IMG/VR virus record: IMGVR_UViG_3300021475_000001 | Span: 32,001 to 96,000 of that record | DNA: 64,000 nucleotides | Reading direction: 5' to 3' (one strand) | Source: a virus | Part shown: positions 12,048 to 47,800 of the stretch, piece by piece | Numbering within the stretch: position 1 is the stretch's first letter | Layout of the letters: each line of letters starts with the position of its first letter | Translations under genes and position numbers: made by a program | The notes under the pieces: model-generated | The model's database searches: none | Seen by the model: only the letters and a program-made list of their open reading frames with translations | Told to the model about the DNA's origin: nothing

Positions 12048-12084
12048 AAAGAGAGGTGGGGGCAACCTCGCCTCTCTTTTTTTT
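12048..12084 (+). terminator. intrinsic terminator
   Basis: AAAGAGAGGTGGGG-GCAA-CCTCGCCTCTCTTT followed by a T run. Confidence 0.75.
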
Positions 12085-12097
12085 GGAGAACTTAGTG

Positions 12098-13075
12098 ATG
12101 ACTGATGATTACGATGAACCAGAAGACAGTTGGGAAGGTGATCCCAAGGACGTGTGGGTAGAGTTTTTGGAACCTGTCAAGCGCATGTCGCGTGATATGA
12201 AACTTGCGGCAGCGACACTTGGTGATAGGGAAGCACGGCATCTGGTAGACTCTTACTACATCATGCAGGAAGATCGCAAGCGTGCCGCTGGGCAGCAACG
12301 CGCACTCACCAGTTCGGGTGAACCTCACTCGGTGATAAACTGGATTTACAACCAGTCAAGCACGTTGGAAAATCAGATCAAGTCGGCACTGGACGTGTAC
12401 TCCGAAAGTCACGTTATGGGTAGCTGGATGCGACAAATAACCGGCATTGGTCCCGTTCTTAGCGCCGGACTTCTCGCGCATATCTATATGGGTGAGTGGT
12501 GCAGTGTCTGTCATGCGCACGATGCTGAGAAGTGTGTGAAGTTGCAGGAGAAGGACAAAAACAAAACCATCGAAAAGCATGATTTTATCCCAGAGTATTC
12601 TTGTCCGACAGTTGGTCACATTTGGTCATTTGCTGGGTGGGCTTCTGACGGTCAAAAGGCGTGGGAGAAGGGTGAGAAACGACCTTTCAATGCCAAGTTC
12701 AGGGTGCTGTGTTGGAAAGCTGGTCAATCGTTTCTCAAACTCAGCAACAATCCAAAGTGCTTTTACGGTGTTGAATATCGCAAGCGCAAAGAGTACGAGA
12801 TTGCGCGTAACGAACGTGGGGACTTAGCAGCGCAAGCTGCTCTTGGTGCTGCACGTGTTGACAAGTACACCGATGCGTACAAGTACTACATTCAAGGCAA
12901 GTTGCCTCCTGCCCATATCGACGCGCGTGCAAGACGCTGGGCTGTGAAGCTGTTTCTGGCACACTTGCATGGTGAATGGTACGAGCGTAACACCGGTAAA
13001 CCTGCACCTGCTCCATATCCAATCTCGCACTTAGGACACGTGCATGTCATTCCGTCACCAGTGAAGAAGGGTTGA
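12098..13075 (+). CDS. TasA-like Nop-domain RNA-binding protein (IS110 C-terminal-like, no RuvC)
   Basis: Coiled coil, then GIGPVLSAGLL, IWSFAGW, PFNAKFRVLCW, HIDARARRWAVKLFL; no N-terminal DEDD domain; 36-nt dual-repeat array ~100 bp downstream. Confidence 0.75.
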   Translation: MTDDYDEPEDSWEGDPKDVWVEFLEPVKRMSRDMKLAAATLGDREARHLVDSYYIMQEDRKRAAGQQRALTSSGEPHSVINWIYNQSSTLENQIKSALDVYSESHVMGSWMRQITGIGPVLSAGLLAHIYMGEWCSVCHAHDAEKCVKLQEKDKNKTIEKHDFIPEYSCPTVGHIWSFAGWASDGQKAWEKGEKRPFNAKFRVLCWKAGQSFLKLSNNPKCFYGVEYRKRKEYEIARNERGDLAAQAALGAARVDKYTDAYKYYIQGKLPPAHIDARARRWAVKLFLAHLHGEWYERNTGKPAPAPYPISHLGHVHVIPSPVKKG

Positions 13076-13078
13076 TTG

Positions 13079-13171
13079 ATGGGTGGCCTATACTTTGTAT
13101 TCGGAATGATGGTTGGAGGTGGCGGCATATATTTGCTGCTTCACCATTTGCAGCTAATCGTTCCCTTCTAA
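13079..13171 (+). CDS. 30-aa hydrophobic peptide
   Basis: MGGLYFVFGMMVGGGGIYLLLHHLQLIVPF; lies between the TasA-like gene and the array. Confidence 0.4.
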   Translation: MGGLYFVFGMMVGGGGIYLLLHHLQLIVPF

Positions 13172-13287
13172 GAATAATCACCAGAGTTGAGAGGACCAAA
13201 CAGAGCGAATGAGTCATCTTGCGAGAGAGTGCCAAAAGGAAAGAACGAGTCAAGTTCCAACGAGAGTACCAGGAAGTGAGAACGTGA
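13172..13287 (+). ncRNA. TIGR-like array 1 (Tas-adjacent, ~3 units)
   Basis: GAGAG(G/T)(A/G)CCA at 13189, 13225, 13262 alternating with GAA(T/C)GAGTCA at 13207, 13243. Confidence 0.75.
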
Positions 13288-13315
13288 AAGCCCCCTAACG
13301 GGGGCTTTCACTTTT
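13284..13315 (+). terminator. intrinsic terminator after array 1
   Basis: GTGAAAGCCCCC-TAAC-GGGGGCTTTCAC then TTTT. Confidence 0.75.
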
Positions 13316-13611: not shown

Positions 13612-13688
13612 TGGGGTGATCGGAGGGAATCGAACCCTCGAATAACCGGATCACAACCGGTCGCGTTTACCACTTCGCCACGATCACC
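13612..13688 (-). tRNA. tRNA-His (GUG) with G-1:C73 and encoded CCA
   Basis: Full cloverleaf: G-GTGATCG acceptor, ACCGG-TTGTGAT-CCGGT anticodon arm, GAGGG-TTCGATT-CCCTC T arm, CCA. Confidence 0.93.
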
Positions 13689-28470: not shown

Positions 28471-29630
28471 CGGCTTTACTCACAGTTGTCAGTGAGTCAC
28501 TGACAATCGCGCGCTTGACTTTGACTTGTCAATAGGTCTGAAAGACGGGGTATAATAATGTCATTGACATGATTATATCAGCGAGATATGATGCGTTTCT
28601 TGAACCTCTTATAACGGATTAAAAAATGACTGATGATCTTAACCAAGTTGACATTTTGCATATTGCCGTCAAAAAACATATGCAGGATCGTTGGAGGATT
28701 CTTCTCCAAACAATCTCTTCCAGTGACGAAGAATTTGGTAAATATTTTAAAGTGCCAATTGAAGCCATTGTAGCGCAACTGTTCGGTTTTACACTTGATA
28801 TACTGAAATTACCACGTGCCAATGCCCATCGTTATATCGATTTCATAAAGAACATGCAGGAAGACAATTTTATGACCAAAGACGCGGATGAATTTCGAGC
28901 GATGATCATAAAATTAGTTGGTGAAGAACACGCCAAGGTGAAAGAGCCATATAATAGTTAACTGGCTCTAACCCTAGGTTCATCATCGTCGTCATTTTGT
29001 GGTACTGGCACTAACGCAAATCCATCGGCTAATGGTTGTATACTGACAATCGGCATGGTGACAATATGCGGTTGTGACTCATAAGGCGGTCTAGGCAGGG
29101 GTAACGTGTCATCCTGCCACCATTGTTTTAACAGTGTGTAATATCCATCGGGACCATACCAAGTGTCGGTCGCTACGGTAGTTTTAGCGACCGGCACGGT
29201 ATTAGTGTTGATAGCAAAGCCTGGCGGTTCATCCAACGGGCAATAAGGCGGCAGATAAGTCAGTGGTTCAGTGTTATCTGGTAGTAGTGCGCGTCTGTAA
29301 GCGATGATCAGCTCAAGCTGGACATGACTTAACACTAGCGCATTTGCTGCGCGTCGATTGTCGATAAAGCGATTGATGATATCGCAGATCACCTCGCGAT
29401 CCCATGTTTCTAGATCAGTAAATGTTGCCGCAAATATTAACTCATTTTTGGCATGATCCAATGCTTCTTCAATTTTCCTTTTTAGAAGAGAAAAAGTTTT
29501 ATCAATGTGTTTTCTTGTGTCCTGTCGCGTGCTATGTGACACGCTGTTGATCCCTTTTCCGAGGGTTGATGAAGAAATCGCCCCTGACCGCTGATCCCGG
29601 TCAGGGGCGAAGTTTTGTGTGTGTTACGTG

Positions 29631-30231: not shown

Positions 30232-31770
30232 TCACGCGTCCACGTGAATGTCGTTGCCATTTTCGATTGCCGGTTGGTCAATCGTTGTCGGCTCAGTAAA
30301 ACCGTCGAGAATGCGGAGTGCGCGACGAAGATTTGCTTTAGCCACCTGGTGATTGACACTCATAACGAGTTCAATACCAGACGGACGCTCACGGCTTAGT
30401 GTCTGTAGTTTGTCCGCTGTGACTTGTGCAGCGGAGGCAAACCGCGCGATATCGCGTTCGGCACGATGCCAACGACTTGACCAGTTCTCGCGTTCCAGTT
30501 CTTCAGCAATACGGCGTCTTTCGGCCTCGTCGGCGATATGTGACAACATACGTGGTCCAGCTACCATCTCACGTAATGTGTCAGTAATCCAGTCGGACGT
30601 AAGCTCGCGCTGTTTCTTGCCGCCGACTATCGTCTGATCTTTAAAGCGTTGGACAATGGCACGGGCAATACCGGCTTGTGCAGTAACCGGCAGTACTGCT
30701 TTAATCGCGTTGCTGGTCACCAACTCACGAAACGTTTCGAGATGTGAGGGTACGATAAAAACCCGACCACATCCGGTCATGTCAAAAGCCGGTGGCTTTT
30801 CCTTTTCCCGTGCTACTACACGTTCCTTACGTTCCGCAGCGTTGGTCTGATTAGCTTCGACTTTTGGTTTTGCCGCGCGAGCGACTTCCGCCGCACGTTT
30901 GGTAGTCTCCGCTGCAACACGTCGTTGTTCAGCTTGGTGTGCAGCTTCCTGGCGTCTTGTCTCAGCTTCCTCGGCATGCAGACGTGCCGAGGCTTCACGT
31001 GCGGCAGCTTCACGGCGTTGTTTCTCTTCTTGTGCAGCCTGTTTGGCACGTTTGGCAGCTTTAACTTCTTCACGGTGACGTTGAGCTTCCACCGCGCGTT
31101 TTTGTGCCTGTTCTTCAGCGGCGATACGGTGTTCTTCTGCTTCCTTGGCAGCAGCCTCGGCAGCGGCAATACGCTTAAGCTCAACTTCCTGTTCAGCTTC
31201 GTATCGTGCGATTTCCTCGCGTTCGATACGGTCATAGTCACCACTACTCTTTAGATGGGCGATCTGCGCACGAACAACGTGTTCACCGATTCCGCGCACA
31301 TCGTGGAGTTTTTCATAGATGGTTTTTGTACCGATACCGTCCCGACGTTGACCCCCGAGATTCGCACGCGCGATTTCGCGTGTGCGAAGTTCTTCACGCA
31401 AGCAACGTCGTAACGCGGCAGCAACGGAACCGGCGGTTGATAGTGAAGTTGCGCCACGCTGGGTGGCGTTTTCTACTGCATAGGCGTGAATCACTTGGTC
31501 ATCATCAAAGTCACCGACAAACAAGTCAGCTTCAGTGATGCCGTGTTGAAGCGCCCCCTGACGGCGATGTTCACCCGCAACCATTTGATACTTCGGTAGC
31601 TTGGAACCAGAACGCCAATCGGGGTTGAGGCGAACGATGCATCCACCCCAGAACTTGTGTGACTTAATGGATTTCACCAACTCCGCGACATTGTTCTCGT
31701 CAATCGGATCGACAGCAAAGTCACGGTAAGGATTTCTGGCTAGATTAGCCTCGTCTATTTTAATCAGCAT
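30232..31770 (-). CDS. ParB-like N-terminal domain + long coiled coil
   Basis: NPYR, ELVKSIK, YQMVAGEHRRQGA, ENATQR; Ala/Glu/Arg-rich coil. Confidence 0.7.
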   Translation of the reverse strand: MLIKIDEANLARNPYRDFAVDPIDENNVAELVKSIKSHKFWGGCIVRLNPDWRSGSKLPKYQMVAGEHRRQGALQHGITEADLFVGDFDDDQVIHAYAVENATQRGATSLSTAGSVAAALRRCLREELRTREIARANLGGQRRDGIGTKTIYEKLHDVRGIGEHVVRAQIAHLKSSGDYDRIEREEIARYEAEQEVELKRIAAAEAAAKEAEEHRIAAEEQAQKRAVEAQRHREEVKAAKRAKQAAQEEKQRREAAAREASARLHAEEAETRRQEAAHQAEQRRVAAETTKRAAEVARAAKPKVEANQTNAAERKERVVAREKEKPPAFDMTGCGRVFIVPSHLETFRELVTSNAIKAVLPVTAQAGIARAIVQRFKDQTIVGGKKQRELTSDWITDTLREMVAGPRMLSHIADEAERRRIAEELERENWSSRWHRAERDIARFASAAQVTADKLQTLSRERPSGIELVMSVNHQVAKANLRRALRILDGFTEPTTIDQPAIENGNDIHVDA

Positions 31771-32010
31771 CTGTCATCAAGACCTCTTAAGAGAGGGGCC
31801 GCCTCCCCCCGAGGGGAGGGCACCCGACTGTTGTGTCATAGCAGAGAAAAAGATGCTGTCAACAGCTAAGTCGATGTCAGTGACATTCCAAATTTTTCAG
31901 AGTGTGACACTCAATCATAATACCAAATAGCTGTCAGTGACATTTGGAACCTTGACTGCCTGGCTGGGCTGTGCTATGATTATCATAGCAAGATCAACTA
32001 GGTAAGTACG

Positions 32011-33588
32011 TTGTCACTTGATCCATTTAGACCCGCGAATCAAACTATCGAGTTTGTGGACTCGGCAGCCGGTTCGCGCAAGACTTTTACGGCAGTGGAG
32101 AAAGCACTGATCGCCGCAAGGCGGCGTGGTGCCAGGATTATCTTTGCGATGCCGACACACAAGCTGATCGATGAAATGACCACGCACGCGCGTCTAGATG
32201 GTAAGGTGCCGGTCTACGAAATAACCAGCCGCTTAAGCAACAATGTTGTCCAACACATTTGCAAACACGTAGAGCGCGTGAAGGATGGACACTTGCTGTT
32301 CATCACGCATGAAGGCTTGCTTCGGGTCACAAAGTGGCCCGATGAAGCCAAGGACTACGAGTTATACATTGACGAAGTTTTGGACACCATTCTTAATCGT
32401 GCGCCGTTTAAGCTGCGTGACAATCACTGGGTTTTGACCCGATTTCTCGATGCAGTGCCAGTGCCAGCCACGATTGCTGAGCGGCAGAAAGCGCAGAATA
32501 ATAAGGTGGTCAGTCTCAAGGCTTGGAAAGGTAAAAAGGAAAAAGAAGTCGAACCACTGCCATTTTATTATCATATCATTCCCAAGTACAACGTCAAAAC
32601 AAAAGACCCATTGTACTGGTTGAAGCGACATGAATATGCCAAACAGCAAGACGATATCTACACGTATCTGGACCCGATAGCCAAGTGGTTATTGCAAGGC
32701 AATGCTTTGTTCACCGATGCCAATCAGTGGAACTTAGCGCAAGCCACCGATCCGGAAGCGTACAAGAGTCATCTGCGTGGGTTGATTACCATCACCGGGT
32801 TTCGACGGCCGGACTCTCTGAAGGCGTTTAAGAGTGTCACCGTGATGTCCGCGTTGTTTAAGTACACCATGCTGTATCAGGTGTGGCAGCAACTCGGTGT
32901 CGAGTTTGTGCCGTCACAGACGGTGACAGTCAATCAGCCCACCACTGATCTTGGTAAGCGTAAGCTCAAGATATACTGGCTGTCGAACGAAGGATGGTCA
33001 AAGCGCACGCGTGATCGTTCCGGAGGAATTACCAACATACTAAACTTGATCAAAGAGTCCAACATCCTTAATCCGCGACAGCCGGTTTGTGTGGTCGTGA
33101 ACAAGGATGATGGTTCAGAGACAAATCCTGGAACTGTCACCGCAGTGTTTCCTAAAGCCGTTGTAATGCCAAATAACGTGCGCGGGCAAAATCGTTGGCG
33201 TCATTATCATCAACTGATACACTGCGCTGCACTGAACTCATACACAAGTGACATACGCTGGATGGAGAGTGTTTTGGGTATCGACAGTCACTACCAGCGT
33301 CTTGGGCGCACGGGTCATGAAGTGTATCAGGCATTGATGAGACTGAACCTGCGTGATCCAAATGGTAAGGGTGATATCATACTGGTAGTTGTGGACAAGG
33401 ACATTGCAGAGTGGTTGCCGCAGTGGTTTAGTCCAAGTCATCAAGTGTCGGTGGAGGAGATTGACTCCAACGGTGTTATCAAGAAGAAGAAATCACAGAA
33501 TGGACGACCGCCAATTGGAGAAAAGCGAATGACCGCTGCGGAACAAAAACGTCTCTGGCGTTTGAATCATCCTAAGACGAGTGTCTGA
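32011..33588 (+). CDS. helicase-like replication / origin-binding protein
   Basis: AGSRKT, FITHE, YIDEV, MSA, YQALMR; C-terminal basic GRPP...AEQKR. Confidence 0.55.
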   Translation: MSLDPFRPANQTIEFVDSAAGSRKTFTAVEKALIAARRRGARIIFAMPTHKLIDEMTTHARLDGKVPVYEITSRLSNNVVQHICKHVERVKDGHLLFITHEGLLRVTKWPDEAKDYELYIDEVLDTILNRAPFKLRDNHWVLTRFLDAVPVPATIAERQKAQNNKVVSLKAWKGKKEKEVEPLPFYYHIIPKYNVKTKDPLYWLKRHEYAKQQDDIYTYLDPIAKWLLQGNALFTDANQWNLAQATDPEAYKSHLRGLITITGFRRPDSLKAFKSVTVMSALFKYTMLYQVWQQLGVEFVPSQTVTVNQPTTDLGKRKLKIYWLSNEGWSKRTRDRSGGITNILNLIKESNILNPRQPVCVVVNKDDGSETNPGTVTAVFPKAVVMPNNVRGQNRWRHYHQLIHCAALNSYTSDIRWMESVLGIDSHYQRLGRTGHEVYQALMRLNLRDPNGKGDIILVVVDKDIAEWLPQWFSPSHQVSVEEIDSNGVIKKKKSQNGRPPIGEKRMTAAEQKRLWRLNHPKTSV

Positions 33589-33645
33589 TAACTCTCTGAT
33601 TTATACTTATCAGACAATTCAATGATTTCAATAGCTTAGTGTTTG

Positions 33646-33800
33646 GAATGTAACCAGACCACATGAGAAGTACCACATAATCGGAGTGAACCATCAGAAA
33701 TGAGAGTACCAAGAATTATGCGTGAGTCATTGATCGGGAGTAGTACCAGGTTAGAAGAACGAACCACGAATACTGAGAGTACCATGTAGCGAGAGTTAGT
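33646..33800 (+). ncRNA. TIGR-like array 2 (~4 units)
   Basis: GAGA(A)GTACCA / GAGTGAACCA alternating with 8-nt variable segments. Confidence 0.8.
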
Positions 33801-33816
33801 TACGAAAGGGTGTCGA

Positions 33817-33939
33817 GTGAACAAAAAGCAGCAGAAGAAGATCAAGAAATTATGGAAAAAGCTCTCGACTAAGCAACGGTATCGGATACTGACCTATTGT
33901 TATCTGGTACGTGAAGAAATCAAAAGCCAAAAGGGCTGA
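33817..33939 (+). CDS. 40-aa basic peptide between arrays
   Basis: GTG lies inside GAGTGAAC after a GAAAGGGTG RBS; MNKKQQKKIKKLWKKL...; stop overlaps the next repeat. Confidence 0.5.
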   Translation: MNKKQQKKIKKLWKKLSTKQRYRILTYCYLVREEIKSQKG

Positions 33940-34070
33940 GAATCCCACGATAGGTGAGTTAACCACCTGGCTTGAGAGTACCAGGATAGTAGAGTGAACC
34001 ATAAGGTGAGAGAGTACCATCTTGGAAGAGTGAACCATGGGTATAGAGAGTACCAGTAGGAGAGCGTGAA
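33938..34070 (+). ncRNA. TIGR-like array 3 (~4 units)
   Basis: Exact 36-nt period of GAGAGTACCA and GAGTGAACCA. Confidence 0.85.
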
Positions 34071-34234
34071 TGCACGAACTGGAACATGAGATGGTGAAGC
34101 TGGCGACACGTTTGGAACGAGGCACCATTACTGCCAAACAGGCGGCTGCCAAGTTACTGGCACTGGCGACACTATCACACTATGAGTACATACCTGACCC
34201 CGAGCTTCGCGAGGATCAGAAGCTACCACGGTAA
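34070..34234 (+). CDS. 54-aa protein between arrays
   Basis: MHELEHEMVKLATRLERG...; RBS AGGAG lies within a spacer. Confidence 0.55.
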   Translation: MHELEHEMVKLATRLERGTITAKQAAAKLLALATLSHYEYIPDPELREDQKLPR

Positions 34235-34287
34235 CCAGGAGGGTTGAGTAGTACCATAGCGGTAGAGTGAACCACGTGGAGTGAATT
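34232..34287 (+). ncRNA. TIGR-like array 4 (1-1.5 units)
   Basis: TAACCA-N8-GAGTAGTACCA-N8-GAGTGAACCA. Confidence 0.7.
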
Positions 34288-34290
34288 AAG

Positions 34291-34587
34291 ATGGCAAAGC
34301 ACACAGCCACCGTGCATAAACTGTCACATGTCCGACGTGATCGTGGGTACCGATTTACGGAACGTGACCCCGACATGGTGTGGTTGTGTGGTATCATCTC
34401 CAATTCCGAGATGTCGGTGCAAGATATTGTTGAGTCAGTGTCTAGTACCACAAAGGGTTTAATTCGAGTGTCACCTAATACCATTTACAACTGGCTCAAT
34501 GGTAAGACCAAGAAACCACAAAACTACACGCTAACGTGGGTGGGTCATGCTCTAGGTTACGAACGTGGCTGGAAGGTGATAAAGTAA
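34291..34587 (+). CDS. XRE/Cro-type HTH protein
   Basis: VSPNTIYNWLNGKTKKPQNYTL..V..ALG. Confidence 0.7.
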   Translation: MAKHTATVHKLSHVRRDRGYRFTERDPDMVWLCGIISNSEMSVQDIVESVSSTTKGLIRVSPNTIYNWLNGKTKKPQNYTLTWVGHALGYERGWKVIK

Positions 34588-34867
34588 TGGACCGACTTGC
34601 CATGGCAAATGCCTTTGCCTATTATGTGCGTGACAAGTCCGAGAACCAGGACATAAATTTAGCGGTGATGTCTGGTATTATGGAAGGATACTTTCTCTTT
34701 GATCCCTTTACCGAGACACTGACGATGACAGAGAGACTGATCAACATTTTACTCCCGGACCTTCCCAAGCAGTGAAGGGAGGTGATGCCACTTGGTAGAC
34801 GAACATCCGGAGGATTTGATACTTAGTTGTGGAGGGAGGTGATGCCTTTGACCTGAGTCACTTTGTG

Positions 34868-34911
34868 ACCCCCGTCACTGCATTCCCCTCCAGGAAGTGG
34901 CGGGGGTTTTT
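34868..34911 (+). terminator. intrinsic terminator-like hairpin
   Basis: ACCCCCGTCACT...AGTGGCGGGGGT followed by TTTT. Confidence 0.55.
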
Positions 34912-35114
34912 AACCATGCGAGCGGAGAGTGTACCATTAAGTAGGAGTGAACCAAGTCGTAAGAGAGTGCCACGGGACGAGAGTGAACCACGTGTGGGAA
35001 GAGGACCAATCACCGCGAGTTAACCATCTCAAATGAGAGTACCACGGGGGCTGAGTGAACCATCTAAGTAGAGAGTACCAAGACGAAAGCGTGAACCACC
35101 TAAGTTGAGAGTAC
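34911..35114 (+). ncRNA. TIGR-like array 5 (~6 units)
   Basis: 36-nt period dual repeats with unique spacers. Confidence 0.85.
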
Positions 35115-35135
35115 TTCCAACGAGGACGCCAAGCA

Positions 35136-35390
35136 ATGACCAAGACATGTCACCGCGGTCATACGCTGACACTTGAGAATACTTACTACCGGAGCGACAA
35201 TTATTGGGGGTGTCGAGAATGTCGCAAGCTTCGCAAAAGCCGATACATAGCTAAAGACCCAGCATCGCATAATCGACGCTCAGTAGAAGGTATGCGACGC
35301 CTCCGAAAAAAACACCGCGAGAGAATGTCCCTTATTCGAGGGCAGGCAGTACCAGACTTTAGTGTAGGATCGTTGAAGATAAAGGACTAA
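35136..35390 (+). CDS. small zinc-finger protein (HNH-associated C-terminal type)
   Basis: TCHRGH...ENTY...CRECR; no HNH catalytic core. Confidence 0.55.
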   Translation: MTKTCHRGHTLTLENTYYRSDNYWGCRECRKLRKSRYIAKDPASHNRRSVEGMRRLRKKHRERMSLIRGQAVPDFSVGSLKIKD

Positions 35391-35404
35391 AGGAAAACCA
35401 TCCA

Positions 35405-35758
35405 ATGCCACACAATAGCAAGCCACAGCCATCACAGATTACCGAACGCCCGGCTGCGCCAGTGACCAACGAGGACACCAGCGTTGCGAGCGTGGTCGGT
35501 ACACAGGAAGAGCAGGAGCCAGACGGTCCCGAGCACATTTGGCTTCAGCCAGATTGTTGTGCCGATCCGGGTACGGGGCGCCTTTGGTGTCAGGACAACG
35601 TATTTGATTGCGATGAAGGTATGCCGGCGACGGAATATATCCGCGTTGATATCGCCGCCCGCAGGGTCGCCGAGGAACGCGACCGGTGTGCGGCAATACT
35701 TAGTCATGCTGGTTTGCCGGAACTCGCTATTGCCATCCGCAACAATCTTTTGGAATGA
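35405..35758 (+). CDS. hypothetical phage protein
   Basis: PEHIWLQ...WCQD...EYIRVD phage motif; RBS AAGGA. Confidence 0.6.
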   Translation: MPHNSKPQPSQITERPAAPVTNEDTSVASVVGTQEEQEPDGPEHIWLQPDCCADPGTGRLWCQDNVFDCDEGMPATEYIRVDIAARRVAEERDRCAAILSHAGLPELAIAIRNNLLE

Positions 35759-36129
35759 CGGAGGTTCTGATGACCCCGCGCGAGAGGGCAGCCGAAGAGA
35801 TCGTAGAAGCGATCCTCAAATGTGGAATGTGCCCGAATATTATTCCGAAGAATGCTGACTGCGATTATCCGGAATGCCGTGACAGTCTGTGCGAATTCTG
35901 GCAGCGCGCGGATGCAATCAAAGAACAGGTCGGCGGCGTACTCACCGAGCACGTCCGCGCGCTACTGGCGGAAGATGAGGCGACGATTGAGGCAATGGAA
36001 CGAGCGTATTGTTGGCAAAAAGGTTGCCAATTGCTTTTATGCAATCAGTGCGGGAAATGCTCTGTGCATAAAGAACTGTTTAAGATGCGCGCTGCTCTCG
36101 CCGTCCTCCGCAGAAAGGCCCTTGGTTAG
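35755..36129 (+). CDS. Cys-rich hypothetical protein
   Basis: ATGA overlap with upstream gene; stop TAG overlaps the first repeat of array 6. Confidence 0.55.
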   Translation: MTEVLMTPRERAAEEIVEAILKCGMCPNIIPKNADCDYPECRDSLCEFWQRADAIKEQVGGVLTEHVRALLAEDEATIEAMERAYCWQKGCQLLLCNQCGKCSVHKELFKMRAALAVLRRKALG

Positions 36130-36730
36130 AGTACCAATATCCAAGCGTAAACCACGTGTGTAGAGAGTACCATAATAAGAGAGTGAACCATAACAAGTGA
36201 GTGTACCAATTGATGAGAGTAAACCACGCGATCGGTGCCATAACTGGCCATGATCCCCGAGTGAACCAAAGGATGGGAGAGTACCACCAGACGCAAGTGA
36301 TAACCACATCACTGGAGAAGTACCAAAGGTGGAGAGTGAACCGTGGATGTAGAGAGTGCCACACAGATGGAGTGAACCAAAAACGTGGAGAGTACCACAA
36401 CTGAAGAGTGACAAACGGCAAGTGTAGTACCAGTGAACCAAGTAACCAGAGCAGTACCATATACGTAGAGTGACCCATTCATGCCGAGTAGTACCCTGTT
36501 ACGAGAGGGAACCACGTCCATAGAGAGTACCATGTCGCGTGAGTAAACCAGACAAACAGAGTAGTACCATGTTCCGAGCGTGAACCATGAGAATGGAGAG
36601 TACCATAGGCGCTGAGTGATCCAGAGAACCAGAGTAAGTACCAGATCCAGGGAGTGATCCAGAGAACCAGAGTAAGTACCAAGTACCGGGAGTGATCCAG
36701 AGAAGCTGAGTGAACCACAAGGTCAGAGAC
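36127..36730 (+). ncRNA. TIGR-like array 6 (largest, ~16 units)
   Basis: GAGAGTACCA-N8-GAGTGAACCA-N8 repeated; two degenerate units; terminal 38-nt tandem duplication. Confidence 0.88.
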
Positions 36731-37019
36731 ACGGGAACAATATCACTGCCTCGGCCCCAACCAGTTTGTGTAGGAGCCGGGGTAGTGAACGTGAACGACA
36801 CTGAAGCATACGGGAACTAGTACACCAGTGTCGGTCACCCCCGTAGTACATCCACATGAGGTGGACTACCCAGTACCCGTTCTCCCAGCGGACACCGTAG
36901 TTACTCATGATGTTTATCGTCCCCTATCTCGGAAGGATAATCTTTATCCTCTATCTGGCGTTTGCTCTATTTCTGATTCTACACCCGATACAGGTTTGGT
37001 TGTGGTTGTGGGGTTAGTT

Positions 37020-37690
37020 CACCAGCGGAAACGATAGAGCTTGTTCGCTCGCATGAGAACAGAGTCCTGGCAAACACGTAGTGTTACTGACACTCGACAC
37101 TAAACATTCGGTTTGGGGCGATGGAAAAACCGGTGGGCACTGGAAAACACCTTGTTTCACGTAGTAGTTGGCCGCGTACCGCGGCCAACTGTTGCATGAA
37201 TTCAGAGTGTGTCGCTTCGCGACACTCTCTTCATTCACGCAACTAAAGTTAAACGATTGGTGCATGAACTGCACCACGTTTGTTACGGCCGTGCCTGTAC
37301 CGACACGTCGCGCGTGCGCGCGAGGCGTTCGGGGCTTTGGTGCGGACTTCCGCACTATTCCAGTCGCCTATTCTAAGCCGAAGCTCGTTCCGACGCTGGA
37401 CTTCACACTTCACCGGGAGTTCAGCCTGTCAACGCGCATACCCGCGGTGGTCAAAGCAAAGTGGTGAGGCTAGTGAGATATGGCCTCTATGTCTGCGACG
37501 CTTGACTTGACTGTTTCAGTCGAGTATTTTGCGTCTCAGAACGATGGCCCTCGCAAAGTGACATCGTTCTTCCAGAACGGGGCGTTAAGCCTGTCAACCG
37601 TTCTCTTAAACACCCGGTTCCGAAAGGTTCCGGGTGTTTTTGAGAGTGCGACACAGTGCGCAGTCTCGTCAAGCAGAAAATCGCATCGAT
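37020..37690 (+). ncRNA. candidate large structured ncRNA
   Basis: About 10 hairpins; G-U pairs favour the + strand; no credible ORF. Confidence 0.45.
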
Positions 37691-38099
37691 AGTCATTGAC
37701 TAGCCACGAAGGTCATTGACACCGCAGATTACTTGTGATTTACTCGCTTTTGACGTGACTGGGACCGAGGCAAAACCCCCCAGGTTGACCCCCTGCTGAA
37801 GTCTCAACCCATGTCTTTATCCCCACATAAACTTGGCCCGAAGGATGAGAAGCCCCTTTCGGGCCATTTCTTTTGGTGTCACTACATGAGTACATCTCAC
37901 GTCATTTGGTTGGGTCTTATTGCTGGTTCTGGATTGGCGTTTTTTCTTGTTCTTTCGCATTCTGATACCGTTGCACATAGAAAGTGTGATAAGATCGTCC
38001 ACGAGTTGTTAACCAGTAAGGATCAAACCGAAGTGATCCGTGCTGGTATACTGACGATCCAACTTAATTGCGGTATCACTAGTCGTATGGGAGCAGAGT

Positions 38100-39077
38100 A
38101 TGAGTGACCAGCGTCTTCCGGGACATGAGCTAGACAAGCCACGTCCCGATGCACGTTCCGCGCGTCCTGATCGCGTTTATCCTGGTGATCCGAAGTATCG
38201 ACCACTGCCGCAACCACGATCCGTGCGCAGTGACCCACCACAACCAATGACACTGACACCTGATTGGCGAAACGTATTCAACGACCACTTTTTCAATTCC
38301 AATGTCGATATGGAGAAGTGGTGGACACGCTACGTCTACAATAACGGGACGCTTGATTATCTCAATGATGAGTGGGAGCGTTATCGCGAGTCAGGCAATC
38401 ACGTGCTAGACAGTAGTCTGTGTCACTTGGTGACACAGAAGCACAATGGTGAATTTTGGCCCAGTGGGATGCTGCGCAGCAAGGACTGCTACAACATCGG
38501 CAATGGTGACGAATGGTATTTTGAAAGCCGCATGAAGGTACCCGAATTTCTTGGTAGCTGGTCAGCGTTCTGGATTGCTGGTAGTGAACGAAACCCTGGT
38601 GACGATCAGAGTGTTCCCTGGCCTCCTGAGATTGACCAGTGTGAAATTGTCAACAATGGTAAAGACGATACGACACATATGCTGCACTGTTGCGGGCAAG
38701 TCTTAGATTGGAACGCTAACCCACAACAATATGCCGGTACATGGGCGGCTGACGGCTTTAACTGGGACTACATGTATTACTGGAGTGACGCCGACCTGTC
38801 AAAAGGCTTTCATACCTATGGGTTGTGGTATAAGAAGCCGGAGTTTGTGGTCTATCTGGACCGTAAGCCGATACTTGCTGCCAACTACGATTGGGTAGCA
38901 GATGACAGACAGCCGATGAATTGCTATCTGTTTGCCAATCTCGCTGTTGGTGGTCAGTGGGCCGGACGTTACGGGGTTGACGATGCGGCACTGCCGCAAA
39001 GTCTTGATATCGACTACATTCGCGTGTATCAACGCGTGCGACAGAGTACAATCGGCCACAATCTACTGCCGGTGTGA
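38100..39077 (+). CDS. glycoside hydrolase family 16
   Basis: SGML.S, WSAFW, WPPEIDQCE (EIDxxE), FHTYG, NLAVGG.W, IDYIRVYQ. Confidence 0.85.
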   Translation: MSDQRLPGHELDKPRPDARSARPDRVYPGDPKYRPLPQPRSVRSDPPQPMTLTPDWRNVFNDHFFNSNVDMEKWWTRYVYNNGTLDYLNDEWERYRESGNHVLDSSLCHLVTQKHNGEFWPSGMLRSKDCYNIGNGDEWYFESRMKVPEFLGSWSAFWIAGSERNPGDDQSVPWPPEIDQCEIVNNGKDDTTHMLHCCGQVLDWNANPQQYAGTWAADGFNWDYMYYWSDADLSKGFHTYGLWYKKPEFVVYLDRKPILAANYDWVADDRQPMNCYLFANLAVGGQWAGRYGVDDAALPQSLDIDYIRVYQRVRQSTIGHNLLPV

Positions 39078-41034: not shown

Positions 41035-41111
41035 TTGACACTCTCCGGGTATGGCACTCTCTGGGCGGATGGTTCACTTCCGGTCTTTGGTACTCTCTTG
41101 CTTCATGGTCT
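41035..41111 (-). ncRNA. TIGR-like array 7 (minus strand, ~2 units)
   Basis: Reverse complement reads GAGAGTACCA-aagaccgg-AAGTGAACCA-tccgccca-GAGAGTGCCA-tacccgga-GAGTG. Confidence 0.75.
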
Positions 41112-41474
41112 TTTCTTGGTGTCGGAGGAGCGTGCTTTCCTTTAGATTGAATGCCTTGCACATTACCGATAACGGGATGTCATAGGCATCGTTAAAATGG
41201 ATGATAAGTGTCACTTTCTCTTGTAGACTTAGTTGGCGCTGGGACATCATGGCCTCTGACTTATTGCTTTGCAGCGTACATAATGGTGATAGGCGTCCTG
41301 GTGTATTTGACGATTTTGCGCGTCGGCAGCAAGACCTTCTACAATGATTGCCATGAGACAACCCGTGGTAAATGCCAGTTGTGGTGATATGTCACTGGGT
41401 TCTAAGATCGGGTAAATGGGCTTCAGTTTGTCTAAGCACTCGTTGAGTATTGTCCTTACTTCTTCGTTGGTCAC

Positions 41475-44344: not shown

Positions 44345-44564
44345 TGACCAAAGATCGAGAGAGTACCATAAGGTTAGAGTGAGCCAAACACTACGAGAGT
44401 ACCACGCCTGCGGCGCGAACCACTCTATTGGAGAGTACCAAAATCTCAGCGTGAACCATTAGTTAAGAGAGTACCATGATCTTTGCGTGAATCAAGAGAT
44501 CCGAGAAGTACCATGATCTGTGAATGAGCCATAGATGCGGAGAGTACCAATGTGGGACGAGCGT
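44345..44564 (+). ncRNA. TIGR-like array 8 (~6 units)
   Basis: GAGAGTACCA from 44359 to 44540 spans 5 periods (181 nt). Confidence 0.85.
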
Positions 44565-44804
44565 ATGTCACCACTAGCCGATTTTCTGGTAATACCACTT
44601 CGTTGTCGGCTGGGATGGCATCATTGGGTTCGCTTCTCGCGTGTCAACGACATTTGTATTTGGCGTTGCCGTCGTTGTCACAAGACGGTTGAAGTCCATG
44701 ATCCGGTTTACCGGAAATTGCGCCGACAGTAGAAATCGCTATGCTTGGAACAGTCATCGTGATAGTAGAAAGAACATCTACACTTCCAGACGTGAGGGGA
44801 AGTC

Positions 44805-47800
44805 GTGACGTTCTTACACACGATCAACACCGCTGGAAGAAAGGTGTTCTTTCACTTTCACGATGCGTCCAAGACAAAACGCGTTCACGATGCACCGGTA
44901 TGGAAGGAAGAAGAACACCCGCGCGCTAAGTCTGGACAATTTGTCAAGGGTGCTGGTGTACATCCCAGTGAAAAGCCACAGGCAGCACCGGGTGCTGTGG
45001 TTGTCAATCCTGTTGCACTGGCACTAAAAGAACACGGATACGAGAAGATAAAGAGTAAAAAAGGTACCAATCTATATCACCATCCATTGTCTGGTCATCA
45101 AGTCGAAGTTCATGCCGCCTCTACGGGTCAGAAGTGGCTGACAGGCTGGACGCATTCTGAGGGTGGTACTGGTAGCGGTGCCGGTAAGCTATCCAAGCAT
45201 CTGGCTGGTATCAATCACGGCGCACCGCCAAGCGGTCCGCCAGGTATTCTGCCTGAACTCTCCAAGCAGATGGGACTTGTGCCCAAGCCGACACCGACAC
45301 CACCTCCTACACCAACAGCCACCGCAGCGGTACATCCTAAGCCGCAGATTCACGCCAAGATGACAGAGTTGGGATTTAAGCCCGCTTTTTCTGGTCCCAA
45401 TACCACAACTTACACCAGTCCAACCAAGGGTAAAGTCATTCTAAAGAATGACACACCGGCAACTGGTATTGATAAGGGTAAGTTGAACTGGTCATACACA
45501 CCACCTACTGGCCCGTCTATTTCTGGTCATGGGGTGATGAGTGGTAATCTAGCTAGTACTATTGCTTCTAAGAAATCTGCGTGGGAAAGTGAAACACCTA
45601 GCACAAGTGTCATCGGACCTAAGGGCATCGAGAAGGTACTGCCGAATAAGGAAGTTGTGAACGGCACCACGATCTACGCTAACCCAGATGGATCCGAGTC
45701 AGTTGCCATTAAACCAGATGGCACTTGGAAGATATGGCAGGGTGAGAAGGTCATGGCCTACGGGTCTGGCCAGGAGGGACTTAACAGTGAGTTTGAACAC
45801 CTTCACCCGCGTGGTGAAGGCGGCAAGTTCATCGCCAAACCAAAGCCAGCGGGAGTGAGTGAAGCAGATCACAAGACACTGACCGATGCTGGTTACGAGT
45901 TTGTTGGACCGGCACCTTGGGCGTTTCAGGGTGCCGCTGGTGACATATCTGTTTACGGTAAACCAGACGGCTCGGTTATCTTAGCAAAACCTGCTACTGA
46001 AGCTGGGGGTCAATCTACTATTTTCCCAGTATATCCAAAGATTTTAGAAAGTCCTGATGAGGAAAATTACAAAGATTTGGCGAAGATGCTGGGGACGGCA
46101 CCAAAGCCAGGTGAAGTACCGACTGGTGTTGCTGATCCATATGCATCTTCTGTGGCGTCAGACATAAAAGAGAATATGGATAAACTCGATCAAGCAGAAT
46201 TTCATGAGATGTTGAGCAACAATGGGTTTGTGCCTGTTACGGATATGACAGGTCATACGAAGTTTAAGAAAGGGAATGATTACGTCTATGTTTCTAAGGA
46301 GGATGGAATAGGTGCGCATTGGCAAATTTCTACTCCCAATAACACATTTAATAAAGAAGGTTACGGCATCAACGAACTTTATGATGCACTGGGACTAAAT
46401 CCAGCAACATCAAACTATCAGCCACCATCGACAGGTTTAATGGGAGCATGGCAAGTTCCGATTGAAGTCTCTAACGGACCAAAAGATTTGGGGGACTATT
46501 CGTTTGCCCATCCGGGGTTCCCGGAAGAACCAGCGAATCAGTACGAATTTCCTGATGGTACAAAATTAGTCACCAGTAAAGAATCTGACAAATATGAGTT
46601 TATTGATCCTGAGTATAAGACAATTGCTCATGGTAATGGGCAGCAAGGTCTTGACAATGACGCCTATAATCTTGGCTTGACAGGTAGTCCGCCAGCGACA
46701 GTTCCGCCACCGCCTCCGCCATCAACGGGAGCCTCTAATCTTCAGCAGTCGTTGATGAGTATTGCTAGTCCGTTGAAGAGTGACGGTTTTACTATAACAC
46801 CAGGATTTGATCCTGATGCGATAGTGGGTGTCTTGAATAATGATCCTGACAAGATCAAGATGGCGTTTACTTATAATCATGACACTCAGAAAGGACTTGT
46901 GTCGTGGCAACTGCCTGGTGGACAGCCAGGTGATAGTGAAACATTTACGGGTAATGCCGCTAAATTTTACAACTATGTGAAAACCAAGTTTGATGAGGTT
47001 AAAATCTCGGCGCAAAGTTCACCAATCAAGGCCGAACACTTCAGTAAGAGTACTTTTATACCTACCGAGTTGAATGGTGTTAAGTTTGACAGTTGGACAC
47101 CACCAGCCAATTGGGCTGATGTCGAAGGACAGAATCCGCACATTCAAGAACCGCCGATGACCGCGACACCAAATAAGAAGATCAGTTGTGGTTTGTTGAT
47201 TGAAGAGCCTGATGGACGTGTCTGGATCGTCAAGCCAACAAATTCTTTTGGTGGCTACAATTACACTTTCCCAAAGGGTGGGCAGGAGCCGGGTCAGTCA
47301 CTGCAAACGACAGCGATCAAAGAGGCGTGGGAAGAGAGTGGTCTGAAAGCCGAAATCACCGGCTTTGCTGGTGATTATCTGGGTGACACTAGTATCACGC
47401 GCTACTACCATGCAAAACGTACTGGTGGTACACCAAAAGATTATGACACTGGTGAGACTGAGGGAGTGTCACTCATTCCCAAAGAGGAACTGGGTCAGTA
47501 TCTGAATAAGGCACGTGATCTACAGATTGCCAAGGACCACTTCTCGCCAAAGGCTGTTGGTCATTCGTTACATATGAGTGATCTTACCAAGATTTCTGAT
47601 AAGAAGGGTAGTAATCCTGGTGGTATATACGAAAATCTGGAAGGTAAGAAATACTATGTAAAGCATCTCAAAACAGCACAACATGTGGCTAACGAACTAC
47701 TCGCCGCCGATCTTCTGGCAAAGGGTGGTGGCGGTACGTTGAAGTATCATGCAGTACATGGTGACGGTCCTTTTAAGAATAGTATTGGTACTGATTATGA

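What the first reader, a model, noticed from the sequence alone, without database searches (positions are those of the whole stretch)
33646..36730. Small genes interleaved with array segments like cassettes, with codons built from the repeats
ORF 33817-33939 starts at the GTG inside GAGTGAAC and its TGA overlaps the next GAGAATCCCA. ORF 34070-34234 appears to split a loop repeat (GCGTGA|ATG...CGGT|AACCA) and uses a spacer (AGGAG) as RBS. The TAG of 35755-36129 begins array 6. The stop at 13171 abuts array 1, and the stop at 41074(-) lies inside a repeat of array 7. Inference: either genes are captured into arrays by recombination at repeats (integron-like, in keeping with IS110 ancestry), or array units insert at gene boundaries.
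Basis: partly seen in the sequence, partly recalled or inferred. Interest (0 to 1): 0.8.

Follow-up and report, generated by a model that had tools for sequence, protein, structure and literature searches.

The report
Phage guide-RNA arrays between small genes
The repeats are guide-RNA arrays of the recently described TIGR-TasA system, packed tightly between ordinary small phage genes, and the apparently "split" repeats are normal array ends rather than signs of integron-like gene capture.

Summary
In 33.6-36.7 kb, five segments of an 18-bp-period array alternate GAGAGTACCA and GAGTGAACCA with 8-nt spacers.

The arrays are dual-repeat TIGR arrays (Faure et al. 2025). The window holds 40 units of 36 nt, against 0-1 in shuffles. 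The partner gene is tasA at 12056-13075, a nuclease-free Nop-domain protein (profile vs TasR, PDB 9MTY, E 1.3e-24). It was the only protein shared with all six other array-bearing loci whose fetched DNA includes the gene.

The integron-like reading is not supported:
- The complete 111-kb genome has no IS110 DEDD domain, tyrosine integrase or resolvase.
- Junction positions differ from one gene block to the next.
- The "split loop repeat" around ORF 34070-34234 is a 3'-truncated edge repeat ending one array and a 5'-truncated edge repeat starting the next. This is the published TIGR array terminus. It also occurs where no other array is nearby.

In related phages, arrays likewise abut or overlap flanking genes, and stop codons often lie in the first edge repeat.

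Most of the small ORFs look like real genes. I could not obtain DNA from close relatives, so breakpoints remain untested. The kind is known; the organisation (dispersed arrays embedded in operons) is unusual. This scan has noted scattered TIGR guides in other soil phages.

The parts
12056..13075 (+). tasA: a 339-aa nuclease-free Nop-domain TIGR-associated protein, the presumed binder and processor of all the arrays
   Evidence: It is the only ORF with homologues (38-46% identity) in all six other array-bearing loci whose fetched DNA includes the gene. The alignment profile A1 matches TasR (9mty) at E 1.3e-24, TasH at 1.4e-14 and IS621 at 2.5e-4. More than 4000 homologues were found, many carrying PF02371.
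13176..13283 (+). TIGR array 1: 2-3 degenerate units directly downstream of tasA, followed by an intrinsic terminator at 13284-13315
   Evidence: Units are listed. The hairpin GUGAAAGCCCCC/GGGGGCUUUCAC plus a U-tract has z -4.2.
31952..31980 (+). Sigma-70-like promoter candidate upstream of the 525-aa gene and arrays 2-4
   Evidence: TTGACT-17-TATGAT with an upstream TG, 10 of 12 matches. This is a consensus match only.
32011..33588 (+). 525-aa gene (phrog_2467, unknown function) that heads the array-bearing operon
33652..33797 (+). TIGR array 2: four unit positions, three of them recognised by the unit scan. It starts with a 5'-truncated edge (AACCA) and ends with the degenerate edge GAGTT
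33817..33939 (+). 40-aa lysine-rich ORF whose coding status is uncertain. Its GTG lies in a GAGTGAAC half-edge, and its last codons overlap the first unit of array 3
   Evidence: Coding score 0.126, which is ambiguous. The exact sequence is not among called genes.
33925..34070 (+). TIGR array 3: four units. The first begins at AGCCA inside ORF40, and the array ends with the 3'-truncated edge GCGTGAA
   Evidence: (units at 33925, 33961, 33997 and 34033).
34070..34234 (+). 54-aa gene with an AGGAG ribosome-binding site in the last spacer of array 3. Its TAA lies in the half-edge that starts array 4
   Evidence: Coding score 0.337. It is a called gene with an 85%-identical 54-aa relative, P0123.
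34233..34284 (+). TIGR array 4: one unit (34233-34269), then GGAGTGAA (34277-34284), a half-edge-like Shine-Dalgarno 7 nt before the next ATG
34291..34587 (+). 98-aa gene, probably a helix-turn-helix DNA-binding protein
   Evidence: Coding score 0.232. It has 129 homologue clusters at E<=1e-3 and a relative differing at 6 of 98 residues, P0125. It gives a weak phrog_8 hit.
34587..34775 (+). 62-aa gene, translationally coupled to the 98-aa gene (TAATG overlap)
   Evidence: Coding score 0.48. Relatives P0127 and P0128 carry an in-frame indel.
34867..34912 (+). Intrinsic terminator-like hairpin plus U5. Its U-tract runs directly into the AACCA half-edge of array 5
   Evidence: Fold energy -28 kcal/mol, with a stem of 13 or more pairs followed by UUUUU.
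34912..35116 (+). TIGR array 5: five units plus a trailing degenerate loop (GAGAGTACTT)
35136..35390 (+). 84-aa ORF resembling the zinc-binding part of HNH endonucleases
   Evidence: PHROG HNH families at E 1.7e-5. It is a called gene, but its codon score is low at -0.10.
35405..35758 (+). 117-aa gene of unknown function
   Evidence: Coding score 0.358. Relative P0131 is 92% identical over the core and differs at both ends.
35755..36129 (+). 124-aa cysteine-rich gene (119 aa if started at 35770), with no homologues found. Its TAG opens array 6
   Evidence: Coding score 0.191. It is called as a gene at both 119 and 124 aa.
36127..36717 (+). TIGR array 6: about 13-16 units, with a 38-nt tandem duplication at its 3' end, followed by a strong hairpin (36743-36789) without a U-tract
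41039..41110 (-). TIGR array 7: two units with half-edges at both ends. The first unit overlaps the last 12 codons of ORF 41074-41361
44346..44563 (+). TIGR array 8: five units upstream of the 1384-aa NUDIX/ADP-ribosyltransferase gene
53095..53352 (+). TIGR array 9: six units filling the gap between gene 52406-53101 and the large terminase (start 53362). That gene's TAA lies in the first half-edge, and the last half-edge GAGCGAGG overlaps the terminase ribosome-binding site

Best explanation
The repeats are dual-repeat TIGR arrays belonging to one TIGR-TasA system of a complete 111-kb soil phage.

Each unit reads AACCA-N8-GAGAGTACCA-N8-GAGTG, 36 nt in all. That is half an edge repeat, spacer A, the loop repeat, spacer B and half an edge repeat. 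By analogy with characterised systems, each unit would be cut out of a longer transcript and bound by a TasA dimer as a two-spacer guide for nuclease-free DNA binding.

In this phage the arrays do not sit in one block beside tasA. They lie in at least ten intergenic gaps on both strands, always in the orientation of the local genes. Five segments lie in one early-type operon between ordinary small phage genes.

Only half an edge repeat is needed at each end of an array, and phage genomes are compact. The arrays therefore run right up to or into the neighbouring genes:
- The TGA or TAA inside the edge repeat often serves as the upstream gene's stop codon.
- The purine-rich 5' half-edge or last spacer often serves as the downstream gene's ribosome-binding site.

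Shown here: the array anatomy, its statistics, the identity of tasA, the array termini, the tight packing across the family, and the absence of recombinases. Inferred: co-transcription with the genes, processing into 36-nt guides, and function as an RNA-guided DNA binder or repressor. Unknown: the targets.
For: - Array statistics: 24 two-repeat matches against 0 in shuffles. 40 units against 0-1 in shuffles, 29 of them exactly 36 nt.
- The same two repeats form arrays in 8 IMG/VR phage contigs with 38-58% GC.
- The one protein shared with all six other loci that include it is the 339-aa gene at 12056-13075, and it lies next to arrays in each of them.
- Its profile matches TasR at E 1.3e-24 and TasH at E 1.4e-14.
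- The published definition of TIGR arrays is met: two alternating 8-12-nt repeats, short spacers, 36-nt tigRNAs, a CCA box C, truncated edge repeats at array ends, and a terminator. Array 1 ends with a half-edge plus a terminator.
- 57 of 62 array termini in 11 loci are edge or half-edge if GAGTGAACCA is the edge repeat.
- Arrays abut flanking ORFs within about 25 nt across the family. Stop codons lie inside the first edge in G001, G002, G003 and L005 as well.
- Gene status: codon scores of 0.19-0.48 for five of the seven ORFs, against a shadow-ORF 95th percentile of 0.19. Close relatives show conservative changes and in-frame indels. The 98-aa protein has 129 homologue clusters. Overlapping stop/start pairs occur at 34587 and 35755.
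- Published work shows that TasA binds 36-nt tigRNAs and represses transcription.
Against: - No RNA data exist for this phage, so transcription and processing of these arrays are not shown.
- The arrays in the finding lie 20-24 kb from tasA, further than the 5-kb neighbourhoods examined in the papers.
- The box D 'UG' described for TasR is present in the edge repeat (GAGUG) but reads AG in the loop repeat.
- A terminator-like hairpin (34867-34912) sits between arrays 4 and 5, and no clear promoter follows it. A single transcript through all five segments is therefore doubtful.
- Array 6 opens with a loop repeat that has no upstream half-edge, and array 5 ends with a degenerate loop, so the terminus rule is not perfect.
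- No target was found for any guide.
- The origin of the interleaving (genes into arrays, or arrays into gaps) is not resolved.
Confidence: 0.8

Rival explanations
1. Integron-like or IS110-like cassette capture. A recombinase acting at the repeats inserts and excises small gene cassettes within a once-continuous array, and the split repeat around ORF 34070-34234 is the scar.
For: - Gene blocks 34070-34234 and 34291-34912 are each flanked by the 5' part (GCGTGAA, GAGTGAA) and the 3' part (AACCA) of the same repeat type. Block 35136-36129 is flanked by GAGAGTAC.. and TAGAGTACCA.
- The arrays lie in a hypervariable region in the G001/G002 comparison.
Against: - The complete genome (direct terminal repeats, CheckV 100%) has no DEDD_Tnp_IS110, tyrosine integrase or serine recombinase domain.
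- TasA lacks any N-terminal catalytic domain.
- The same half-repeat ends occur at arrays with no array on the other side of the neighbouring gene (33652, 44346 and 53100, and arrays in G001-G004 and L001-L005). They are also the published normal array termini.
- The junction differs between blocks: edge, loop, terminator, and different offsets.
- The flanks have no attC-like inverted repeats.
- Contigs of two soil runs showed no excised or empty-site form; this is weak evidence because contigs drop rare variants.
Confidence: 0.04
2. The repeats drive mosaicism without a dedicated enzyme. Dozens of identical 10-nt repeats act as microhomology for illegitimate or homologous recombination. Array segments are thereby copied into new intergenic gaps, and gene blocks lying between arrays are swapped among co-infecting phages.
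For: - Otherwise unrelated phages (38-58% GC, 50-122 kb) share the same repeats and tasA.
- In the syntenic variable region of G001 and G002, one phage has tasA plus arrays and the other has only an array, with tasA elsewhere.
- Every phage examined has arrays far from tasA.
- Array 6 ends with a 38-nt tandem duplication.
- A Terriglobales genome holds an orphan 2-unit array and no detectable tasA.
Against: - Spacers are not more alike than column shuffles predict: 20 near-identical pairs against 14.8 +/- 3.5, reached by 30 of 300 shuffles. There is therefore no trace of recent copying between arrays.
- No breakpoint could be mapped at nucleotide level.
- The G001/G002 divergence is too deep to place junctions.
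Confidence: 0.12
3. The small ORFs are not genes. On this view 33.6-36.7 kb is essentially one long non-coding guide precursor, with decayed units that happen to be open.
For: - The 40-aa ORF has an ambiguous codon score (0.126) and its sequence is not among called genes.
- The 84-aa ORF scores -0.10.
- The purine-rich repeats create many Shine-Dalgarno-like sites by construction.
- The 18-nt period keeps reading frames constant, so chance ORFs in and around arrays are common.
Against: - Five ORFs score in the range of true genes.
- Close relatives keep length and frame, with conservative substitutions and in-frame indels.
- The 98-aa protein belongs to a family of 129 clusters.
- Two gene pairs have coupled stop/start overlaps.
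- The ORF bodies show no residual 18-nt periodicity in register with the arrays: the edge repeats at 34064 and 34228 are 164 nt apart, which is not a multiple of 18.
Confidence: 0.04

Closest known systems
Dual-repeat TIGR-TasA systems (e.g. FpTIGR of Flavonifractor plautii, and the tasParB-linked TasA loci with 10-nt repeats; Faure et al. 2025, PMC12045711; Xu et al. 2026, bioRxiv 10.64898/2026.09.09.750476)
   Same: Nuclease-free Nop-domain Tas protein. Two alternating 10-nt repeats ending in CCA. Short spacers, 36-nt units, truncated edge repeats at array ends, and a terminator after the tas-proximal array. Phage-borne.
   Different: Most units (about 38 of 40 in the window) lie 20-41 kb from tasA, in nine further gaps on both strands. 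They are embedded between protein-coding genes and share stop codons and ribosome-binding sites with them. Spacers are 8 nt. tasA is preceded by a DUF932 gene rather than a ParB gene; a ParB_N protein lies 17 kb away.
TIGR-TasH of Salicola phage CGphi29 (PMC12045711; PMC13421893)
   Same: Phage system with 8-nt spacers (16 variable nt per guide). The C-terminal Nop loop with Tyr/His seven residues apart (Y289/H296 in SpTasH) has a look-alike in this TasA: Y...GH, seven apart.
   Different: There is no HNH domain here. Two of the seven aligned TasA homologues have Phe in place of the Tyr. Self-processing was not tested.
Integrons (IntI, attI/attC gene cassettes)
   Same: Co-oriented, mostly promoterless small ORFs separated by repeated elements.
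   Different: No integrase. The repeats are short direct repeats in 36-nt tandem arrays, not imperfect inverted attC sites. Junction positions are not uniform, and the repeats themselves encode guide RNAs.
IS110/IS1111 bridge-RNA (seekRNA) recombinases, e.g. IS621 (PDB 8wt6)
   Same: The RNA-binding Nop-like domain is homologous (profile E 2.5e-4), and the guides have two parts.
   Different: No DEDD/RuvC catalytic domain anywhere in the genome. The guides form tandem arrays of minimal units rather than a single two-loop bridge RNA. There are no element ends.
Polycistronic guide or small-RNA clusters processed out of longer transcripts (CRISPR pre-crRNA; plant and yeast polycistronic snoRNAs; tRNA-mRNA co-transcripts). 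Named from my own general knowledge and from the discussion in PMC12045711
   Same: Many small RNAs in tandem, probably released by endonucleolytic cuts from a transcript that also carries other genes.
   Different: Here the guide units share nucleotides with stop codons and ribosome-binding sites of protein genes. I did not find this described in the TIGR papers I read.

Membership tests
TIGR-Tas (dual-repeat type) | A Tas protein with the Nop (IS110-RBD-like) domain | tested here: met
   Profile A1 against PDB gives TasR 9mty at E 1.3e-24 (two stretches covering profile positions 52-276) and TasH at E 1.4e-14. Many homologues carry PF02371.
TIGR-Tas (dual-repeat type) | Arrays of two distinct alternating 8-12-nt repeats separated by spacers of about 9 nt, giving 36-nt units | tested here: met
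   GAGAGTACCA and GAGTGAACCA alternate with 8-nt spacers. There are 40 units, 29 of them exactly 36 nt, against 0-1 in shuffles.
TIGR-Tas (dual-repeat type) | Box C (CCA) at the 3' end and box D (UG) at the 5' end of both repeats | tested here: inconclusive
   CCA ends both repeats almost without exception. UG is present inside the edge repeat (GAGUG), but the loop repeat has AG at that position. The papers allow divergent motifs that covary.
TIGR-Tas (dual-repeat type) | [quoted passage not shown] | tested here: met
   29 of 31 array starts and 28 of 31 array ends in 11 loci are edge or half-edge if GAGTGAACCA is the edge repeat. A terminator follows array 1. Exceptions are the start of array 6 and the end of array 5.
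TIGR-Tas (dual-repeat type) | Arrays lie next to the tas gene | tested here: not met
   Only array 1 is adjacent, 100 nt downstream. The arrays of this finding lie 20-24 kb away and others lie up to 41 kb away. Related phages also have distal arrays. Adjacency is how the published loci were found rather than a mechanistic requirement.
TIGR-Tas (dual-repeat type) | Arrays are transcribed and processed into 36-nt tigRNAs bound by Tas | not testable with these tools
   No RNA run holds this DNA. This needs small-RNA sequencing or a pull-down.
TasA subtype | No HNH or RuvC nuclease domain fused to the Nop domain | tested here: met
   Only about 50 residues precede the region that aligns with TasR residues 128-323. 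Pfam gives no hit. PF01548 is absent from the genome.
Integron | An IntI-type tyrosine recombinase next to the cassette array | tested here: not met
   PF00589 gives no match in the complete genome, while it matches in 14 of 14 control genomes.
Integron | Each cassette ends in an attC site (imperfect inverted repeats), with recombination at one fixed core position | tested here: not met
   The flanks are direct 10-nt repeats in tandem arrays. Junction type and offset differ between blocks.
IS110-family element | An N-terminal DEDD (RuvC-like) transposase domain | tested here: not met
   PF01548 gives no match in the genome, while it matches in 7 of 14 control genomes.

The most novel reading that the evidence does not exclude
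Guide maturation and gene expression may be physically coupled. The stop codon of the upstream gene often lies inside the first edge repeat (T|AACCA, GAGTG|AACCA), and the last half-edge often overlaps the downstream ribosome-binding site. TasA-dependent cutting in mid-edge would then remove or expose these signals. That would turn upstream messages into stop-less mRNAs and reset the 5' ends of downstream ones. On this reading, TIGR arrays would also act as TasA-controlled switches within phage operons. A second, less likely novel reading is that the arrays serve as recombination sites that shuffle the genes lying between them.
Probability: 0.12. Interest if true: 0.7.

Novelty: new variant of a known kind. 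Interest (0 to 1): 0.4.

Why it matters
TIGR-Tas systems were described only in 2025. Their natural role, their targets and the way arrays arise and grow are open questions in the papers I read.

This phage, and at least four relatives, show that dual-repeat guide arrays need not sit beside tas. They can be spread through a genome in every transcription unit, packed between ordinary genes, and share stop codons and ribosome-binding sites with them.

Three consequences follow:
- Surveys limited to 5 kb around tas will undercount guides.
- Guides may be made at all stages of infection.
- There is a concrete case for asking whether guide processing affects the neighbouring messages.

The result also removes a tempting but unsupported idea, that these arrays work like integrons.

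Tried and rejected
- **Nucleotide similarity.** blastn of 33.0-37.5 kb and of 36.7-38.1 kb against the phage and plasmid collections gave no match.
- **Rfam.** A scan of 31-46 kb gave no family.
- **Close relatives of the region.** The search for related loci with the 525-aa protein found none in viral or metagenome contigs. The portal protein found only short contigs. P0123 found nothing in metagenome or viral contigs.
- The DNA of the contigs encoding P0123, P0125/P0127, P0128 and P0131 could therefore not be fetched, and the breakpoint test could not be run.
- **Sequencing runs.** Two soil DNA runs hold this phage: one is probably the source and the other holds identical fragments. No RNA holder is listed. 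Laid contigs showed only joints attributable to other TIGR arrays in the sample, and no empty-site or excised form.
- **Self-targets.** Contiguous 16-bp targets were sought in both possible strand geometries, under both edge/loop assignments. Counts equalled those of shuffled spacer pairings.
- **Cross-targets.** 254 guides from all loci were searched against 347 kb of fetched phage DNA. The result was at control level.
- **Spacer similarity.** Similarity within and between arrays was not above column shuffles.
- **124-aa ORF.** Only itself was found.
- **Ideas considered before the identification and dropped.** Iterons or partition sites for the ParB_N protein. CsrA, Hfq or TRAP-type RNA sponges. 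Promoter arrays. Restriction-site decoys. All were dropped once tasA proved to be the one gene shared by the array-bearing phages.
- **Host clue.** One scan of prokaryote genomes found a single 2-unit array in a Terriglobales MAG, in which no tasA was detected. This is too thin to name a host.

Full report
**What is in the sequence**

The region 33646-36730 contains five segments of a repeat array with an 18-bp period. GAGAGTACCA and GAGTGAACCA alternate, separated by 8-nt spacers. Seven small + strand ORFs of 40, 54, 98, 62, 84, 117 and 124 aa lie between the segments.

Further segments lie at 13176-13283, 44346-44563 and 53095-53352 on the + strand. On the - strand there is one at 41039-41110 and one upstream of the window, at genome positions 29354-29391. 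Every segment has the orientation of its flanking genes.

The signal is far beyond chance. Two-repeat matches number 24, against 0 in 100 shuffles. Full units number 40, against 0-1 in 20 shuffles.

- The GTG of ORF 33817 lies inside GAGTGAAC, and its TGA overlaps GAGAATCCCA.
- ORF 34070-34234 is flanked by GCGTGAA and by GGTAACCA, with AGGAG in the preceding spacer.
- The TAG at 36127 opens TAGAGTACCA.
- A 31-aa ORF stops at 13171, just before array 1.
- The TGA at 41076-41074 on the - strand lies inside AAGTGAACCA.

**What the window is**

The window is bases 32001-96000 of a single 111,039-bp virus record with direct terminal repeats, rated 100% complete. It encodes a large terminase, a portal protein, helicases, ribonucleotide reductase and a sliding clamp. 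It comes from soil metagenomes.

**Identifying the arrays**

An exact two-repeat pattern found the same arrays in eight IMG/VR phage contigs. These genomes range from 50 to 122 kb and from 38% to 58% GC.

I compared all ORFs of the fetched DNA by BLASTP. Exactly one real protein of this genome recurred across the other loci: the 339-aa product of 12056-13075. It was found at 38-46% identity in all six loci whose fetched DNA includes the gene, and it lies directly beside arrays in each of them.

- A profile of the seven sequences matches the solved TasR structure 9MTY at E 1.3e-24, TasH at E 1.4e-14 and the IS621 recombinase at E 2.5e-4.
- The family has thousands of members of 265-300 aa, many tagged PF02371.
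- Only about 50 residues precede the part that aligns with TasR residues 128-323, so there is no room for a nuclease domain.

The protein is therefore a TasA.

The two papers that define the system describe arrays of two alternating 8-12-nt repeats with short spacers, processed into 36-nt tigRNAs. Each tigRNA runs from mid-edge repeat through spacer A, the loop repeat and spacer B to the next mid-edge. Both repeats end in a CCA box C. Arrays begin and end with truncated edge repeats, and a terminator often follows. All of this fits here. Array 1, just downstream of tasA, ends with a half repeat and a clean intrinsic terminator. TasA proteins have been shown to bind target DNA and repress transcription under guide control.

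**Which repeat is the edge**

I examined 31 array segments from 11 loci. Of these, 29 start and 28 end with GAGTGAACCA or half of it. Often only xAACCA is present at the start, or GAGTG(A) at the end.

With GAGTGAACCA as the edge repeat, 57 of 62 termini fit the published rule. With the opposite assignment, 41 of 62 fit. The predicted guide is therefore AACCA-N8-GAGAGUACCA-N8-GAGUG. This is an inference from anatomy, and RNA ends would settle it.

**The 'split repeat'**

GCGTGAA before ORF 34070 and AACCA at its stop are the 3'-truncated edge that closes array 3 and the 5'-truncated edge that opens array 4. The same pair brackets the block 34291-34912: GAGTGAA on the left, and AACCA fused to the terminator's U-tract on the right.

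Identical half-edges open and close arrays that have no array beyond the neighbouring gene. Examples are 33652, 44346 and 53100 in this genome, and many arrays in the other phages. A half repeat next to a gene is thus a property of array ends in general. It does not indicate an insertion.

**Tight packing is the rule in this clade**

In G001, G002, G003, G004, L001, L004 and L005, the distance from the upstream ORF's stop to the first recognisable repeat is mostly between -23 and +28 nt. The distance from the last repeat to the next start codon is mostly between -9 and +38 nt.

The edge repeat contains TGA (GAG-TGA-ACC), and its common variant contains TAA (GAGT-TAA-CCA). In at least six further cases across G001, G002, G003 and L005, the upstream gene's stop lies inside or within a few bases of the first edge, and this includes two of the tasA genes.

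The tasA ORF of G002 runs into its downstream array and acquires a Ser-Glu-Pro repeat tail. The 2026 preprint notes TIGR units inside tas coding sequence.

At the 3' side, the half-edge GAGTGA, or an AGGAG or GAGG in the last spacer, sits 7-9 nt before the next start codon. This holds at 34277, 34058 and 53348 in this genome, and before tasA in G001.

**Are the small ORFs genes?**

A codon-usage log-odds model was trained on the 44 longest ORFs. It scores the 54-, 98-, 62-, 117- and 124-aa ORFs at 0.19-0.48 in their own frame and strongly negative in the other two frames. True-gene windows average 0.34. Shadow ORFs average -0.10, with a 95th percentile of 0.19.

- The 40-aa ORF scores 0.13 and its sequence is not among called genes.
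- The 84-aa ORF scores -0.10, but it matches the zinc-binding part of HNH endonucleases.
- Close relatives from other samples keep length and frame: 85% identity for the 54-aa protein, 6 changes in 98 for the 98-aa protein, an in-frame one-residue indel in the 62-aa protein, and 92% identity over the core of the 117-aa protein.
- The 98-aa protein belongs to a family with 129 clusters at E <= 1e-3.
- Two gene pairs have overlapping stop and start codons.

I conclude that at least five of the seven are ordinary small phage genes of the early, fast-evolving kind.

**Testing the integron-like idea**

The complete genome has no DEDD_Tnp_IS110, tyrosine integrase or resolvase domain, although each search rings in control genomes. 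TasA itself has no catalytic domain.

The array-gene junctions are not uniform. They fall in an edge, in a loop (33938, 36127), after a terminator (34912), or with gaps of 60-250 nt (33588 to 33652, 44563 to 44805).

The relative of the 117-aa gene diverges in its first 36 and last 4 residues. Those are places where G000 has no TIGR repeat. This is a weak hint that mosaic breakpoints here do not need repeats.

Contigs from two soil runs show no excised or empty form, but contigs would miss rare forms.

The direct test, nucleotide alignment of close relatives, was impossible.

**What can be said about array history**

G001 and G002 are syntenic around a variable region. G002 carries arrays, tasA and more arrays there. 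G001 carries only one array, and its tasA and two large arrays lie 60 kb away. Modules therefore move, but the divergence is too deep to place junctions.

Spacers in this genome are diverse. Near-identical pairs are not more frequent than in column shuffles. The only clear recent duplication is the 38-nt tandem repeat at the end of array 6.

**Targets**

No guide matches the phage's own genome, or the other fetched phage DNA, better than shuffled spacer pairings do. The targets are presumably in the host or in competing elements and remain unknown.

A single 2-unit array in a Terriglobales genome, in which no tasA was detected, is the only host hint.

**Transcription**

A promoter-like site precedes the 525-aa gene. 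A terminator-like hairpin with a U-tract lies between the 62-aa gene and array 5. Arrays 2-4 and arrays 5-6 may therefore belong to different transcripts, or depend on read-through. This is inference only.

**Verdict**

The system is a member of the known TIGR-TasA kind. What is unusual is its organisation. At least ten arrays are dispersed over more than 56 kb, mostly far from tasA. They are embedded in operons and share stop codons and ribosome-binding sites with neighbouring genes. The two papers examined 5-kb neighbourhoods of tas and do not describe this.

Earlier notes of this scan report scattered TIGR guides in other soil phages of about 100 kb, so the pattern has been seen before on other DNA in this scan.

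The integron-like mechanism is not supported. The 'split' repeat is a normal array end.

Noticed in passing
window 44805-48959 (+): A 1384-aa protein has a NUDIX domain (residues 794-902) and an ADP-ribosyltransferase exoenzyme-type domain (residues 1221-1350). It has no PHROG match and is directly preceded by TIGR array 8.
   Followed up: no
window 36720-38100: About 1.4 kb after array 6 lacks any convincing ORF. It holds several strong hairpins (36743-36789, 37156-37200, 37602-37645) and has no Rfam or blastn match. Its function is unknown.
   Followed up: partly
window 34778-34790 and 34835-34847: Two copies of GGGAGGTGATGCC lie 57 nt apart, between the 62-aa gene and the terminator hairpin. 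In relative P0128, the 62-aa homologue reads through the first copy (...SSEGR).
   Followed up: no
window 12056-13075, residues about 145-185: This TasA carries a cysteine/histidine-rich insertion of about 40 residues (WCSVCHAHDAEKC...) just after the GIGPV helix-hairpin-helix. None of the six aligned homologues has it. G003's TasA has a different 59-residue insertion further on.
   Followed up: no
L019 9157-10173 (G002): The tasA ORF of this relative continues into the downstream array, which adds a C-terminal tail that includes Ser-Glu-Pro repeats encoded by the edge repeat.
   Followed up: partly
L023 (Terriglobales MAG contig CAVPBA010000001.1), reverse strand 4634-4705: An orphan two-unit TIGR mini-array with the same repeats starts on the stop codon of a 283-aa ORF. 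No tasA was detected in that 7.7-Mb genome, which may be incomplete.
   Followed up: partly
L016/L017 (G001) versus L019 (G002): In two related phages, the tasA-plus-arrays module occupies different genomic places. In the syntenic variable region, G002 has arrays, tasA and arrays, whereas G001 has one array only.
   Followed up: partly
window 11040-12032 (+) and 30232-31770 (-): A DUF932 protein is encoded immediately upstream of tasA. A 512-aa ParB_N-domain protein is encoded divergently from the array-bearing operon. Published TasA loci are sometimes operonic with a ParB-like gene, but here the two genes are 17 kb apart.
   Followed up: no
window 13612-13687 (-): A tRNA-His (GTG) gene lies just beyond the terminator that closes array 1, on the opposite strand.
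   Followed up: no
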